Assembly (NCBI GenBank): GCA_964016885.1
Contig: CAXHJY010001203.1
Coordinates: 1 to 64,000, forward strand
Length of the DNA stretch: 64,000 nt
Direction of reading: 5' to 3'
Origin: Eledone cirrhosa
Lineage: Eukaryota
The notes beneath the pieces were generated by a model. The model had not been told where the DNA came from. It worked only from the letters and a program-made list of their open reading frames with translations, and ran no database searches. Both the position numbers and the translations under genes were made by a program. Positions 701-36,500 of this stretch are shown here, one piece after another (position 1 is the first letter of the stretch; each line of letters begins with the position of its first letter).

Positions 701-753
701 TAAAATATTAAACAAATAATGAACAAACAATTCCTTATATTAAACAAAAAAAG

Positions 754-908
754 TTCACTATTTAACGATCGTTTCTAGGGTATATATGTGTTATAATTGG
801 TATGCATATTCAACAGATCTATGTATAAAATTATACAAAATTATACAAATTATCAAGATTAAATATACATACCTAACACATATATACGCCGTCTTCAGAA
901 ATAATGAA
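754..908 (-). ncRNA. Type I hammerhead ribozyme with ~116-nt stem II (family A)
   Basis: Minus strand: uucauuauuu-CUGAAGA-[long hairpin]-GAAAC-GAUC-GUU-aaauagugaa. 10-bp stem I, palindromic stem III. Confidence 0.85.
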
Positions 909-3900
909 GTATATTTATTGATAATAACAACAATTCAAAATATCAGTTCAAAATTGACCAATGAAAACACAAAGGGTTAAAAGCAGTTCGGTGTGTGTAT
1001 ATACATGTAAAATCCTTACACATATTTTACAATAATGTGTGTATAATTTGTATGCGCATACTAAAAAGATGGATGCAAACACAAAATTTCAAGGTTAATA
1101 TCTCTGTAAGCTTAATGCGCTGATAAGATGCGCATTGATACTTATGGAGTCAAGCATATAAATATATTTTTTCATACTCACACATATCAGTATAATCACA
1201 CATACATGCGCGTATATGCATAAATATACACATAACCACGAACATACAAACACACACACTCCCCCACTCACATTTATATATGTGGATATAAAATCATAAG
1301 CACATAGAAATTAAGTCACTCACATAAAACACTGGCACACACATTTTTCAAGATCAAGATACAGAAATTTGGTGGGAGGGGGGGAGGGGTCAGTATTCAA
1401 TTGTCTGAGCAGACTGCCTAATATAAATGTATCTATAAATTAAGAAAAATAAAAATAAAAAAATAAAAACAATAAAATATAATAAATATAATATAATGTA
1501 CATACACATACAGATATACATACACATACATACATGTACGCGCACATAGAGATATTTACGCATACACACATACACACATACATATACAGTCATACACACA
1601 CATACACTTACACGAACATACACATACACATATAAAAAGATATATATATACACACACACACGCGCAACACATACACACATACACATATATATAAAAAATA
1701 GATAATAAAGATATATATCCATATATATATATATATACACACACACATATACATATATATATACATATATATATATATATATATACACACATATACACAT
1801 ACATACACATACATCTAAATATACATACACATACATACACACATACATGTACATACATGTACATACATATACGCACATCGATATACATATATATATATAT
1901 ATATATATATATATATATATATATATATACACTCACATAGACATAAAGATACATACACACACAACTTACATACACACGTATATATATATATATATAGATG
2001 TACCTTCATACATAGAATTAGTTATATAATCATACATACATATGCACCTACTTATACTCATATAAATAAATACATACGCTTCCATATATGTGTATATACA
2101 TAAAAAACAATACCACCTCACCAAACTCAGACATACAAATGAAAATAATAATAATAAAAAAACGCATATGTATATACATACACACACGCATTAATAGAGA
2201 TATATATATATACACACATACATACACATACATATATATACATACACACACACATATATACACATACATATACATATATATATATATATATATATATATA
2301 TATATACACACACACATAGACTCATATATATATATATATATATATATATATATATAAACATATATATCCACACACTCATACCACCATAAATACACATACA
2401 AACACCCACATGTATATATATATATATATCTACATACACACACGTATACATATATATATATATATACATATATATATATATACACACACATAAAAAACAG
2501 ACATGCACATATATATATATATATATATTTCATTACTCTTATATATACACATATTATATATACACATACACAACCTCACTTATACACATATACACATAAG
2601 TTATATTACAATAATAATAAAGAATAATATACATATATATATATACATATACATATATATATATATATATATATATACATACATACATACACATACATAC
2701 ATACACATAAATATATACATACATAAATACACACATACGAATAAAGACATATATTCACACATAGACACCTATATATATATATATATATATATCTATATAT
2801 ATATATACATATATATATATATATATATATACACACATACACACACACACACACACACACAGACACACATACACACTCACATATATATATATATATATAT
2901 ATGTGTGTATGTGAGTGTGCGCACATACACATACATACACACACACATACAAACACACACAAACACATACATATGCATACGTGCACACACACACACATAT
3001 ATCACATAGATACGAAGATAAACATATAAATAGAGAGACATACATATATATACACAACACATATACACATACATACATACACGCATATACATATACATAC
3101 ATATATACACATATATATATTCCTATATATACAAGCATACACATACATACACATATATACACATACATACACATATACATACTACACATTCACATACACA
3201 TACATATATAATACATATATATACATATATATACATACATATGTATGTACAATCATATATACACACACAATCTTACATTCATATTTGCATGCTCATATAT
3301 GTATTTTTATATTTAGATATAAATACCCAAACCTATATAGACACCTACCTACATATATATTCATACATAGACGCTTACAAATACAGATGATAATAGTATG
3401 GGGGAAAGGGGGGGTTTGGAGAAGGGGATCAAAGTAAATATATGTTTCAAGAAACATATAATATTTTCCGTATCTTAATTCAATGTATGTTCTTACATAT
3501 TTTCAGTGCTAGGAAATACGAAATCTATGCATCTCAAAATAAATAAGTATACCATTAATCATATGTTAACTAAACCAAAGATAGTCAACATATTGATTTC
3601 TAAGGTGTAAATTAGTTAGGTTTATAATATTTGAAGCATAATTTTGAAGTCAAACAGTAGTAGATTATTAATTACATTATAACTAAATTAAAGTTAATAA
3701 CATTATGGTATCAATATTAGGAGATGAATTTAGTAATAGGGAAAAGAAACCCAAATAAAAATAAAATAAAGTATTACATCGGTAGTAGCATATAAATTAT
3801 ATGTTAACTAAATTAAAAATTATATATTTATTTCAATAGTATACGTTAATTAGTATATGTTAATTAGGTATACAATACATAAAGCAGATATTGTATTTCA

Positions 3901-32707: not shown

Positions 32708-32776
32708 ATATATATATATATATATATATATATATATATATATATATATATATATATATATATATATATATATATA

Positions 32777-33594
32777 GTTATACTTGGGGAGGGTCATATT
32801 GTTGTAATAATATTGCCAGAAATAATAACAGAACACACTCACTGTTTGGTTGGTTTTCGCTTCTGTATCTTTTATATCTCCACAGTTAATTCATTTGGTC
32901 CTCAATGTTTATCATTGACTGACCAACAGTAAAAAAACAGATATAATATAGATATAAACACATATATATAGTCTAACAAAGTTCTTTCGTTGCACATCTG
33001 CAACATCATCAGTGGTAGTATTATGTTCCCCCTGTTGTATTGTATGTCTACGCCATTTTTATTTTATCTGTTTATTTATTTATTAATATATATATATATA
33101 TATATATATACATATATATATATATATATATATACTACTTCAAAATATTAATAAATATAGACATTCATGTGATCAAATATATTTTATCATACATATTTCA
33201 GAGGTACTGAACTATTTCGACAGTACGTCCTCATCAGATAAAGTAATATATATATATATATATATATATATATATATATATATTTCTGAAGACAGCATAT
33301 ATATGTGTAGGTGTGTATATTTCCTCTGATAGTTTGTAAAATGTTTACATAGATATACATACCAACACACACATATATATCCTAGAAACGATCGTAAAAT
33401 GATGAATTTTTAATATAAGGAACTGGTTCTTTGTTTTTATTCATTATTTTTTATTAATTTATCTTGACTCTGTTTTCCTGGGATTTTCATCGAAAAAAAT
33501 GTTGAATACATCTTCTCTTTTCATGATATTTGGATTACATTGAGTTCTTCATACGGATTGGACAGTACCGTATATTTTAGTAGATTTATCTACA
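32777..33594. mobile_element. Three adjacent PLE 3'-end fragments, each with an HHR motif
   Basis: Family H (-), HHR 32973-33018. Another family (-), HHR-like 33183-33242 with AUG at the cleavage site. Diverged family A relative (+) 33281-33594, HHR 33281-33401 (GUA site). Confidence 0.75.
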
Positions 33595-36500
33595 TATATA
33601 TATATATATATATATATATATATATATATATATATATATATATATATATATATATATATATATATATATATTAATATATATATATATATATATATATTAA
33701 TATATATATATATATATATATATTAATATATATATATATATATATATATATATATTAATATATATATATATATATATATATATATATATATATATATATA
33801 TATATATAAATATATATATATATATATATATATATATTAATATATATATATATATATATATATATATATATATTAATATATATATATATATATATATATA
33901 TATATATATATATATATATATTTATTTGGTTCCTTTACAGAGAAAAACCACAGACCCTCCATCTCAACTCTACTTTTGAAAAGCAGAAGAACGGCGAAAC
34001 CGGTAAAGGAACCAAATAATATATATATTTTTAAAAAAAATAATACTCCAGTTGCATTTTCGATTTCATCTTTTTTTCTATATATACATATATATTAATA
34101 TATTTATATATATTTATATATATATATATATATATTAATATATTTATATATATATTAATATATATATATTTATATATATATTAATATATATATTTATATA
34201 TATATATTAATATATATATTAATATATATATTTATATATATATATTAATATATATATTAATATATATATTTATATAAACCTCGGTGTAATATATATATTT
34301 ATATATATATTTATATAAACCTCGGTTTGGAGGAAACAGCTGTAAGCACAATAATGTTTTGAACAGTTCTTTGATTCTTATATTTCATATATTTATATAT
34401 ATATATATTAATATATATATATATATATATATATATATATATATATATATATATATATATATATATATATATATATATATATATTTATTAATGTTCATAC
34501 ACGAAACAAAAGCACTACTTATGGCTTCATGGCCCAATATTGACCATACATCAGATTTTAAGAAGGATAAAACATAATCACTTGAAGATTTGATTCGTCA
34601 CAATTTGCTTCGTCGTTCAATCTGAAGATATGGTCAATATTTGGCCTTGAAACCTTAAGTAGCTCACTTCCCTTATTCAGAACTGTTTTCTGTTCTCACA
34701 GCTACGGATATCTCTCTCTCTCTCTCTCTCTCTCTCACACACACACACACACACACACACACACACACACACACACACACACACACACACACACACACAC
34801 ACACACACACACACACACACACACACACATACACACACACACTAATGTGTGAGTGTAATATAACTGTTAAGAATTTTTATGATAAACTTACACGATGCAT
34901 TTTATACACACGAAATATGTCAGCAAAAACGTCTGCGAGAATCGAAGCTCACACTGCCATATATCGAAAGATGTTAGTCTCAAATTTAGTGTTTATAAGT
35001 GGTTTACTGGATTAAACTGTAAATGTTGTTTTCACTGTCATATCACATGATAATCAGCGGAACAGGAACAATCACTAAACTACCAGTGGACAAGTATCTT
35101 CCATCGTTGACACACACATACGCATACTTATATATAAGTACGTTTGATATAATACAAATAAGAAACCAGTATCAAATTTCCAAATATGTATTCGTTTACC
35201 AATAATTAATAGCTATAATGTTATCACTTAGTCTTTCAGATGTTCTTGGATTGAAAAAAAACAACAAAACTTTTCAACTGTGGTCATTCCATCAATTTTA
35301 GGGACCACATTGCCTGATGTGTTCTATTTAAGAACGTGATTTTGTTGTTGTTTTTAGAGTTTCGTATAATTGGGTGAAGATTCCTTGTTAACTGGTTAAC
35401 CAGTGTGCCATTAAAGACTTACTTTGTGAGATCTCAATGAATAAAGATGAAATAATTATATTTGAAAGAAAATTACATATGTCTAGTCTGATGGTTGTTT
35501 GAATGTTATAACTTGGTTGGAAAGGGAAGGGATACGTCGTAGTTCTTCTTTTAAGCCCTTCTTGATGGGTATAGGATAGCGAGTAAGCTACATTACCCAG
35601 TGGTGGGAGGAAGGTATCCTCAAGCGAGAGACATGGCCTACATGCCTACAACAGAGTGAACTCCTCTAAAGTAACGGCTTGAATCTAAAAACAAAAACAA
35701 GAAACAAAAAAAAAAAAAATAATAATAAGGATCAGTCTTGCCAACGGGTTTTCCCCAGTTTAACCTACTCCTTTAACTTGAGGCTATGATAGAAGATACT
35801 TGCCCAAGCTCCCGTTTAGTGGGACTGAATCCCAAACCATATATCTGTAAGTAAACTTCTTAGCGGCATGTAAATGCCTGTTACATGAAATCAAGTACAT
35901 CTTTAAAGGATGTTTTCAGAGTTTTAGACGATCCGAAGGAGTGCAATCAAAGAAGAAGGAAGGTTAAATATTTGCACAGTTGAAATACGTTCACTCATAA
36001 CCTGTGTGAAAGTACATAGACCTACACATATGCACACACTAACTCGTATATTGTAGCAAGGCAAACCAGACACTTTAAGAAGCCTTGTCGAAATCTATAT
36101 ATTTTAATTATACACCAGGAAAAGAAGAAAACAAAGAATCTGAAATATTTATCAGCTTGAAACTTACTTTGGTTGGAAACAGAGAATCATTTCCAGAAGC
36201 CCTTAATTAACTCAACCACCTTCATTGTCTTCCGAAAGCTCAAATGCTAATTTGTTCGCCGACTTCAGATACGACTGGTCACAATTTAATTGATTTTCTC
36301 TTGAAACTAATTTACAGCCTTCAGCATTTTACACACGTAATATTTCAGAGACGAATTCGAATTATAAAAGTTTATCATCGGCCGTTGAATAAATATTTAA
36401 TTCAATACATTAATTTCTCAATAATCCTTTTACTTACCTTTTTATTTTATTGAAACTACATCTAGAAAAAATAACATTGAGTTGATAAATAATCTAGCCT

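What the first reader, a model, noticed from the sequence alone, without database searches (positions are those of the whole stretch)
701..34400. Community of microsatellite-targeting, hammerhead-bearing Penelope-like elements piling into one (TA)n sink
Seen: at least 10 distinct 3'-end families, four linked to Hydra-clade-like GIY-YIG coding sequence, are packed into ~34 kb. Nearly all are bounded by (TA)n, and nearly all carry an HHR motif 50-400 nt from the end. Established: PLEs carry HHRs, and some target simple repeats. Inference: a diversified radiation of TA-specific PLEs plus non-autonomous parasites uses the giant TA arrays as safe harbours and may help extend them.
Basis: partly seen in the sequence, partly recalled or inferred. 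Interest (0 to 1): 0.75.

Follow-up and report, generated by a model that had tools for sequence, protein, structure and literature searches.

The report
Penelope jumping genes crowding TA repeats
This stretch holds end pieces of at least fifteen families of Penelope-type jumping genes and ribozyme-bearing repeats that sit in TA microsatellites, a known habit, and it is no denser in them than sampled ordinary parts of this animal genome; their copies end at two fixed, hairpin-marked sites, which likely shows where the copying enzyme starts.

Summary
701-34400 holds one intact 813-aa Penelope-like ORF, three further endonuclease fragments whose families have intact ORFs elsewhere, and ends of at least 15 hammerhead-bearing families. 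All four coding families meet the published Hydra-clade marks; TA targeting and hammerheads are already described for Hydra, including in an octopus (PMC8557442). Genome-wide, 286 of 304 primed (3') junctions are TA, against 7.8% at random. The 'one sink' reading fails: 34 arbitrary 10-kb tiles carry 77 hammerheads (2.3 per 10 kb) against 9 in 33.8 kb here (P about 0.33), and per base of TA array the window has fewer. Arrays mostly pre-exist: their interruption polarity runs on across 6 of 7 informative insertions. Worth keeping: an extrapolated 0.5-0.9 million hammerheads; two fixed 3' ends per family, each just before a bulged hairpin shared with two ORF-less tandem units; family A copies that start at the ribozyme's 5' edge, not its cut site; fixed U4 core changes in two coding families; a 1.3-2.1 kb TA/CA cargo in family A. 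This scan reported the community, the double ends and the hairpins before on other DNA of this genome.

The parts
704..7416 (-). Family A insertion: long arm 704-7085 (proximal 3' end at 704, 3' UTR, ORF) plus inverted short arm 7085-7416 ending at the distal 3' end; TA on both sides
   Evidence: same pair of ends in 37 of 39 inverted copies among 86 position-ordered loci
4570..7011 (-). Intact Hydra-clade ORF, 813 aa, RT + C-terminal GIY-YIG
   Evidence: 55 of 55 scored genomic matches 99-100% identical and open
1485..3250 (-). Element-internal CA/TA low-complexity tract in the family A 3' UTR, 19 (TA)>=5 runs
   Evidence: present in 12 of 12 long copies examined, 1.3-2.1 kb in 11
754..908 (-). 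Family A type I hammerhead, CUGAAGA core at 898, 116-nt stem-loop II, palindromic stem III, predicted cut at 764
   Evidence: folding z -6.5
7417..9626 (.). Giant interrupted (TA)n array with no insert; others at 1-703, 10213-10807, 10988-11885, 26437-27033, 27600-28604
11886..12487 (+). Family D: 519-bp ORF-less tandem unit plus start of the next; hammerhead at 12016 damaged here
   Evidence: (26 of 32 homologous matches carry a scoring hammerhead)
12950..14499 (+). Family E 5'-truncated copy with inverted start, endonuclease tail 13131-13403, hammerhead 14345-14385 (CAGAAGA core)
14553..14719 (.). Family F1 tail only, inverted; homologues carry a hammerhead and a non-Hydra endonuclease upstream
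15417..16061 (-). Further family E ends (15417-15583; 15626-16061, hammerhead 15739-15779); also 16648-16792 and 31204-31571 (hammerhead 31318-31358)
16085..16235 (-). Family H short inverted end with the 3' half of the hammerhead; also 31593-31780
16276..16640 (-). Two decayed ends (Pq, Pq2); damaged hammerhead at 16476
23897..25409 (-). Family I, very young: arm 23897-25144 with endonuclease tail and hammerhead 23954-24053 (CCGAAGA core), inverted arm 25144-25409 to the distal end
   Evidence: (40 of 40 scored matches 100% identical)
25446..25713 (.). Family O inverted end, damaged hammerhead at 25537; homologues linked to a Hydra-type endonuclease tail
26233..26436 (-). Family J end, U3-A8 hammerhead 26373-26402; second copy 33923-34085(+)
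27034..27198 (+). Family K1 end, core mutated here; homologues carry a hammerhead and a Hydra-type endonuclease
27412..27599 (-). Family K2 end, hammerhead 27531-27559
28918..30503 (-). Family H 5'-truncated copy, endonuclease tail 30264-30503, hammerhead 29014-29099 (C3/A8 here, U3-A8 in intact copies)
32007..32622 (+). Family L: 555-bp ORF-less tandem unit plus start of the next; U3-A8 hammerhead 32104-32277 with long loops II and III; a 3'-half-only piece (L3) follows to 32705
32778..33084 (-). Family F2 end, hammerhead 32979-33012
33137..33244 (-). Family M end, damaged hammerhead at 33237
33285..33594 (+). A', 76% sister of family A, solo pLTR starting at the hammerhead (33286-33396)
34284..34395 (+). 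End of a CCGAAGA-core family, core lost here

Best explanation
These are end pieces and a few long copies of Hydra-clade Penelope-like retrotransposons and of ORF-less hammerhead repeats likely moved by them, inserted in TA microsatellites at a density typical of the sampled genome. Shown: identity, TA junctions, two fixed 3' ends per family, hairpins behind both ends, head-to-head structure, genome-wide density. Inferred mechanism: the GIY-YIG domain nicks both strands of an existing (TA)n array. Each free 3' end pairs through 2-6 nt of TA with the RNA 1-6 nt before one of two bulged hairpins, 77-169 nt apart. The RT copies towards the RNA's 5' end, and the two cDNAs are joined head to head, so both outer junctions are 3'-type and TA. 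In family A the template is mostly uncut RNA that starts at the 5' edge of the hammerhead, so priming in the first pLTR yields the many 550-600-bp hairpin inserts. Later inserts land in the TA left beside earlier ones, which gives local clusters without any special sink.
For: Hydra marks met in 4 of 4 intact ORFs (PMC8557442 section 11). 3' junctions TA in 286 of 304 vs 7.8% at random; in position-ordered family A loci 78 of 82. 37 of 39 inverted A copies end at the proximal site, 37 of 37 in TA. Hairpin behind the site: A 22/24 and 10/10, E 53/58 and 4/5, H 52/73 and 5/6, I 3/3 and 1/1, D 18/19 and 4/10, L 13/25 and 13/14; random 66/4000. A arms: 42 of 123 start within 9 nt at the hammerhead's 5' edge, 2 at the cut site, both explicable by microhomology. 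Background 77 hammerheads in 340 kb, 65 of 73 with TA within 400 nt downstream vs 31% at random and 17 of 54 for SINE ends. Polarity of array interruptions continues across 6 of 7 informative insertions. Two internal start sites, cutting of both strands and use of uncut RNA are shown in vitro for a Poseidon element (PMC11167929).
Against: No biochemistry here; every enzymatic step is inferred from junctions. No named Hydra protein is in my tree; membership rests on motifs and on reading the published alignment. Single-cDNA fold-back would give the same head-to-head shape. True 5' junctions are TA in only 17 of 50 and 7 of 16, partly through alignment breaks and later insertions. No hairpin at the proximal end of J (0/11) or F1 (0/12), and only 3/10 for O. 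An extra G that would mark a cap is present in 9 of 22 arms, 3 of them templated by the neighbouring arm: a hint only. The window does have more TA than tiles (P 0.003). Junction loci for E, H, I and L were top-scoring hits, not a random draw.
Confidence: 0.72

Rival explanations
1. The window's giant TA arrays are a privileged sink (safe harbour) that collects these elements well above the genome's usual rate.
For: TA-array bases 8,202 in 33.8 kb vs 24,495 in 340 kb (P 0.003) and 41 arrays (P 0.017); arrays and hammerheads co-vary across tiles (Spearman 0.50).
Against: Hammerheads 9 in 33.8 kb vs 77 in 340 kb, P 0.33; one tile has 9 in 10 kb; 1.1 vs 3.1 per kb of array; the longest array (7417-9626) holds no insert.
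Confidence: 0.07
2. The elements make or lengthen the TA arrays: the telomerase-related RT adds TA repeats at each primed end.
For: TA at 94% of 3' junctions but under half of true 5' junctions; pure runs at junctions have medians of 14-57 nt vs 20 length-weighted in tiles; one non-Hydra insertion into a TATA site has a 27-bp duplication and 4-8 extra TA bases; in the window a TA cluster replaces 176-193 bp of a LINE that has no TA array in 7 intact copies; C-type interruptions 24:6 at the A distal end.
Against: The C bias fell to 13:8 in new loci, and polarity is continuous across 6 of 7 insertions; no clean split of a known TA-free host element by a TA-flanked Hydra insert in 12 host queries, and only the two cases above in a relaxed repeat; no duplication with unique sequence in 601 matches examined.
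Confidence: 0.15
3. One priming event only: a single cDNA from the distal site folds back at its end, and second-strand synthesis stops at the proximal AT-rich site by microhomology to the target.
For: Many family A inserts have near-perfect palindromic apices; self-priming was proposed for such palindromes (PMC3846280, passages).
Against: A hairpin stands behind the proximal site as well as the distal one; arms are often very unequal, with the distal arm the shorter (window copy; L098, L320, L337, L339, L344); some inserts use the distal site in both arms (L052).
Confidence: 0.25

Closest known systems
Hydra clade of C-terminal EN+ Penelope-like elements, including Hydra-1_Obim of Octopus bimaculoides (Craig et al. 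2021, PMC8557442; section 11 and supplementary Hydra and HHR tables read)
   Same: RW(K/R), DKT, CxCX5C linker, no CCHH, CxxC and CxH around E and N; type I hammerhead near the 3' end; (TA)n insertions (26 of 27 listed families); many families in one host (14 in Hydra magnipapillata).
   Different: Units of 3.3-6.3 kb against 'generally <3 kb'; TA/CA cargo in A; U4A, U4C and U3-A8 cores (all Hydra rows in their table are CUGANGA); tails of 77-169 nt. The hammerhead listed for Hydra-1_Obim matches none that I found in the window.
Poseidon PAc of Anolis (Frangieh et al. 2024, PMC11167929; main text read)
   Same: Two internal start sites bounding a 'tail'; both strands cut; AT-rich targets; hammerhead cleavage dispensable, uncut RNA the main template.
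   Different: PAc sites lie 111-118 nt into the ORF in an AC-rich stem-loop without homology to the target; here the sites are far apart, upstream of the ORF, TA-like, and each precedes a bulged hairpin.
Metazoan non-LTR retrozymes (PMC7229834, passages; bioRxiv 10.64898/2026.07.22.740005, part 1 of 5 and passages)
   Same: ORF-less tandem units with one type I hammerhead each (D, L); proposed dependence on Penelope-like elements.
   Different: D and L are 519-556 bp (150-450 bp described), end at two fixed TA-flanked sites, form inverted arms and share the Hydra hairpins; RNA circles not tested.
Hammerheads of metazoan PLEs (Cervera and de la Pena 2014, PMC4209133; parts 1-2 of 4 read)
   Same: Palindromic short stem III, many sequence families per genome, solo and opposite-strand pairs 100-700 bp apart, U3-A8 covariant.
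   Different: Numbers: about 2,000-9,000 per genome there and 120,000 in axolotl (PMC7229834) against an extrapolated 0.46-0.92 million here; U4 substitutions are not mentioned in the parts read.

Membership tests
EN+ Penelope-like elements | Single ORF with RT and C-terminal GIY-YIG | tested here: met
   Pfam gave no hit for A, but the RT aspartates and the Y-Y-G-R-H-E-N residues are invariant in an alignment with the Pfam-positive ORF at 38687
EN+ Penelope-like elements | pLTR tandem or inverted arrangement with optional tail | tested here: met
Hydra clade | RWK-type motif and DKT instead of DKG | tested here: met
   4 of 4 ORFs (RWR in A, E, H; RWK in I)
Hydra clade | CxCX5C linker | tested here: met
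   A, E, H; I in copy L210, one Cys changed in L209
Hydra clade | No CCHH in EN; CxxC and CxH flanking E and N | tested here: met
   4 of 4
Hydra clade | Canonical type I hammerhead | tested here: inconclusive
   A canonical; H U3-A8 in intact copies; E and I carry fixed U4A (79 of 88) and U4C (27 of 28), overlapping loci not removed; cleavage untested
Hydra clade | Insertion into (TA)n | tested here: met
   270 of 284 3' junctions for A, E, H, I
Hydra clade | Length generally under 3 kb | tested here: not met
   units of 6,293 (A), about 3,260 (E), 3,542 (H), 3,538 (I); a tendency in the paper, not a criterion
Hydra clade | RT phylogeny with named Hydra references | tested here: inconclusive
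   Groups with unnamed DKT-type homologues (0.94), far from DKG-type outgroup; no named reference among the rows
Non-LTR retrozymes (D, L) | ORF-less tandem monomers, one type I hammerhead each | tested here: met
   no endonuclease upstream in 0 of 10 (D) and 0 of 18 (L) copies with >=800 nt of TA-free upstream, controls E 31 and H 28 positive, control I negative
Non-LTR retrozymes (D, L) | Self-cleavage and circular RNA | not testable with these tools
   needs bench work or raw RNA reads
Naiad/Chlamys | N-terminal endonuclease | tested here: not met
   EN is C-terminal in all four
Penelope/Poseidon, Neptune, Nematis | DKG motif and CCHH in EN | tested here: not met
   absent in A, E, H, I at the motif position; present in the ORF at 38687

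The most novel reading that the evidence does not exclude
Hydra-clade enzymes read a shared two-hairpin code in the RNA and prime both strands of a TA array from it, using uncut RNA that begins at the hammerhead. The hammerhead serves as a 5' structural element more than as a cutter, which is why two successful coding families have fixed U4 changes. ORF-less repeats hijack the same code, and together they have seeded more than half a million ribozyme motifs, several times the largest count I saw in print, with family A also spreading new TA targets in its own 3' UTR.
Probability: 0.35. Interest if true: 0.7.

Novelty: new member of a known kind. Interest (0 to 1): 0.4.

Why it matters
What could matter is mechanistic. 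How Penelope-like RTs, the sister group of telomerase, choose start sites and make their lopsided inverted copies is open, and whether they move retrozymes is proposed but unshown. Family A (55 near-identical intact ORFs scored, 4,947 exact end matches) and family I give purifiable proteins, a defined target, two defined start sites and candidate passenger RNAs, so these questions become directly testable. The scale also bears on repeat annotation of octopus-like genomes.

Tried and rejected
Rfam scan: the 150 listed hits were TA-driven microRNA and similar matches, no hammerhead row. Two early descriptors were too strict and were replaced. Pfam found nothing in A or its EN fragments. The genome DNA search for J returned nothing because common words are skipped; copies were then found in fetched loci. 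No second copy of the single-copy stretch 20720-21890, so no empty allele in the assembly. No RNA holder listed. A test for an empty site of the young family I insert in other samples was not carried out, so array length before insertion stays open. The ORF at 38687 was meant as a non-targeting control but also targets TA. Search for target-site duplications: 4 candidates in 601 matches, all one unrelated repeat. C-bias of arrays at the A end (24:6) did not replicate (13:8). Cap-derived G: weak. Pattern count was too short to be family-specific and is not used. The endonuclease-link part failed its positive controls and was redone. Permuted (type SGC) hammerheads: paper passages read, not searched for in the window. 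The effect of U4 substitutions was not found in print: the one search aimed at it failed on a format error.
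Full report
Setting. The window is the first 64 kb of a 96,852-bp contig in a 3.0-Gb animal genome of 1,796 contigs. A homologue of one window protein is named from Octopus bimaculoides at 62% identity, so the host is probably octopus-like; I did not identify the assembly.

Observation. With TA/CA arrays compressed, 701-34400 is a string of short unique pieces between arrays. One long ORF lies at 4573-7011 on the minus strand (813 aa), and three GIY-YIG C-terminal fragments at 13131-13403(+), 24800-25165(-) and 30264-30503(-). Rfam listed no hammerhead among its best 150 rows, so I wrote a descriptor for type I motifs. 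It allows U4 substitutions and U3-A8, and misses loops III over 30 nt. It finds 9 motifs at score >=25 in 701-34500, against 0 in each of 20 block shuffles. Eleven motifs at score >=21 lie 58-202 nt before a TA run; a twelfth at 19793 has no TA and is taken as chance. Family L has a further U3-A8 motif with long loops, found by hand: stem I, core and stem III recur in most of 19 homologous matches. Damaged motifs at 12016, 16476, 25537, about 27085 and 33237 have intact counterparts in homologues. In all, 18 sequence groups, 17 with a hammerhead in the window or in homologues. Three TA-bounded inserts look RTE-derived by their sequence (recalled resemblance, plus for their multi-copy nature).

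Four coding families. Family A: 55 of 55 scored genomic matches are 99-100% identical with an open 830-codon frame; its 27-nt end pattern occurs 4,947 times, control 0; a tandem unit is 6,293 bp. The EN fragments lead to intact ORFs of 709 (E), 717 (H) and 794 aa (I) elsewhere, 46-48% identical to A. All four have RW(R/K), DKT, the CxCX5C linker (I in one of two copies read), no CCHH, and CxxC and CxH around the conserved E and N. These are the marks given for the Hydra clade in PMC8557442 (section 11 read whole). Its supplement lists Hydra-1_Obim from Octopus bimaculoides with (TA)n preference and a hammerhead, and (TA)n for 26 of 27 families; A follows the printed Hydra alignment closely by eye. 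A FastTree on 353 RT columns (60 rows; 4 dropped for lack of the anchor motif) puts A+I (0.97) and E+H (0.99) in the DKT-type group (0.94), far from a DKG-type outgroup. The four group together only at 0.77, with three unnamed outside proteins among them. No named Hydra protein is in the tree, and one radiation is not established. K1 and O are ends of two further Hydra-type families (EN at 34-43% identity in 3 and 2 copies), and F1 of a non-Hydra family.

ORF-less passengers. D (519-526 bp) and L (555 bp) are head-to-tail units with one hammerhead each. No endonuclease lies upstream in 0 of 10 and 0 of 18 copies with at least 800 nt of TA-free upstream sequence. Controls E and H gave 31 and 28; control I gave 0, probably because its UTR holds a TA run that cut the test stretch. 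They fit non-LTR retrozymes (PMC7229834, passages; bioRxiv 2026.07.22.740005, part 1 and passages; its supplements are closed and may list related families).

Junctions. Each family has two fixed 3' ends: tails of 134 (A), 85 (E), 77 (H), 169 (I), 85 (L), 102-106 (D) and 60 nt (J). Leaving out read-through copies, 286 of 304 such junctions are TA, against 7.8% of random positions; these loci were mostly top-scoring hits. For A I used 86 of the first 100 places in genome order: 78 TA, 4 read-through, 4 other; 39 are inverted, 37 of them end at the proximal site, all 37 in TA. Of 258 inner ends, 208 join an inverted or tandem arm; the 50 true 5' ends are TA in 17, with at least 7 of the rest being subfamily indels. 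So TA 'at both junctions' holds mainly because both outer junctions are 3'-type. The element sequence at each end is itself TA-like, which allows short pairing with the target.

Twin hairpins. Earlier scan notes proposed a bulged stem behind each end. I tested it: a 4-bp stem with a 2-nt 3' bulge begins 1-6 nt after both sites in A, E, H, I, D and L (counts under Best explanation), against 66 of 4,000 random sites. It is absent at the proximal end of J (0/11), F1 (0/12) and the non-Hydra family (0/12), and weak for O (3/10). The anchors were chosen per family, and copies are related, so the counts show conservation across six dissimilar families, not independent events.

Template. Of 123 family A arms in position-ordered loci, 42 start within nine bases at the 5' strand of hammerhead stem I (22 at one base), 31 run further upstream, and 2 start at the predicted cut, both through microhomology; one of 48 other arms starts there. 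The template is therefore likely uncut RNA starting at the ribozyme's edge, in line with PAc, where cleavage was dispensable (PMC11167929, main text read). An extra G is seen in 9 of 22 arms, 3 of them templated by the neighbouring arm: a hint of a cap, no more. In H the starts cluster inside loop II. Cores: A CUGAAGA; E CAGAAGA in 79 of 88; I CCGAAGA in 27 of 28; H U3-A8 in all eight intact-ORF loci and C3/A8 in the window's subfamily (overlapping loci not removed). U3-A8 is a described PLE variant (PMC4209133). That U4 belongs to the conserved core is recalled; its effect here is untested.

No sink. I fetched 34 tiles of 10 kb at round coordinates on the large contigs (one further request fell outside its contig). 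They hold 77 hammerheads at score >=25 (shuffled: 1, 0, 1). 65 of 73 point at a TA run within 400 nt, against 31% for random sites and 17 of 54 for SINE ends. Resampling tiles reaches the window's 9 in 33% of draws. Extrapolated: 0.67 million motifs (bootstrap 0.46-0.92 million), from a small, clustered sample and a home-made descriptor. The 77 fall in 34 sequence clusters, Chao1 about 58. The window has more TA (8,202 bp; P 0.003) but fewer hammerheads per kb of array (1.1 vs 3.1), and the longest array holds no insert. The largest counts I saw in print are 120,000 (axolotl, PMC7229834) and about 9,000 (PMC4209133). Searches for octopus with hammerhead ribozyme and for cephalopod Penelope elements showed no such count; a 2026 octopus repeat annotation lists 31 recently active Penelope-like families without clade or ribozyme detail in the two parts read (PMC13282606).

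Do they extend arrays? Mostly not shown. Where both flanks of an inverted A insert have C- or G-type interruptions, polarity runs on across it in 6 of 7, as for a split pre-existing array; an apparent C bias (24:6) fell to 13:8 in new loci. No known TA-free host element was cleanly split by a TA-flanked Hydra insert. In favour: family A carries a 1.3-2.1 kb CA/TA tract with 11-24 pure runs in 11 of 12 long copies, the twelfth longer with a hammerhead nested inside; one non-Hydra insert at a TATA site has a 27-bp duplication and 4-8 extra TA bases; and the cluster 23863-25800 replaces 176-193 bp of an RTE copy that has no TA array in 7 intact relatives. Empty alleles were not available.

Verdict. 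The elements are real, are new families of a known clade, and behave as that clade is known to. The sink is not special, and the scan has met this community many times elsewhere in the genome (351 notes fit the look-up). The remaining interest lies in the scale and in a testable two-site, hairpin-guided priming model. Interest 0.4.

Noticed in passing
window 38687-41189 (+), inverted part 37866-38755: Intact 651-codon PLE ORF of another clade (DKG, CCHH; Pfam RVT_1 and GIY-YIG) with a minimal hammerhead-like motif near 41040; it also ends in (TA)n at two sites 44 nt apart and lacks the Hydra hairpin.
   Followed up: partly
L267:1290-1800: A piece of that family inserted into its own ORF at a TATA site, with a 27-bp duplication and 4-8 extra TA bases.
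   Followed up: partly
window 23190-23862 and 25801-26065: An RTE LINE copy is interrupted; 176-193 bp are missing and replaced by TA arrays, I, O and a (GT)n run; intact relatives have no TA array there.
   Followed up: partly
window 27600-28604 and 7417-9626: Giant arrays switch between G-interrupted and C-interrupted halves, that is, between the two orientations of one pattern.
   Followed up: no
window 9627-10212, 28605-28800, 30690-31116: RTE-like pieces bounded by TA; 9627-10212 is a 586-bp multi-copy unit ending in a zinc-finger-like reading frame, 94-96% identical to copies elsewhere.
   Followed up: partly
window 10808-10987: Palindromic TA-bounded piece with partial homologues and no assignable hammerhead.
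   Followed up: partly
window 18423-19279: Diverged inverted repeat (72% over 259 bp) around 360 bp, possibly an old DNA transposon.
   Followed up: no
window 57927-57957 (-): Canonical hammerhead of another abundant family, 133 nt before a TA run.
   Followed up: no
window 34486-34705: TA-bounded piece with a damaged hammerhead-like motif at 34622 and no homologue in the loci held.
   Followed up: partly
window 17587-17780 and about ten further places: Abundant ~190-bp SINE-like repeat, not TA-associated; used as a control.
   Followed up: partly
window 5230-5620 (-): Asn/Thr/Lys-rich insertion of about 100 aa between the RT thumb and the linker in A, shorter in I, absent in E and H; N-rich inserts are described in rotifer Penelopes (PMC3846280, passages).
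   Followed up: no
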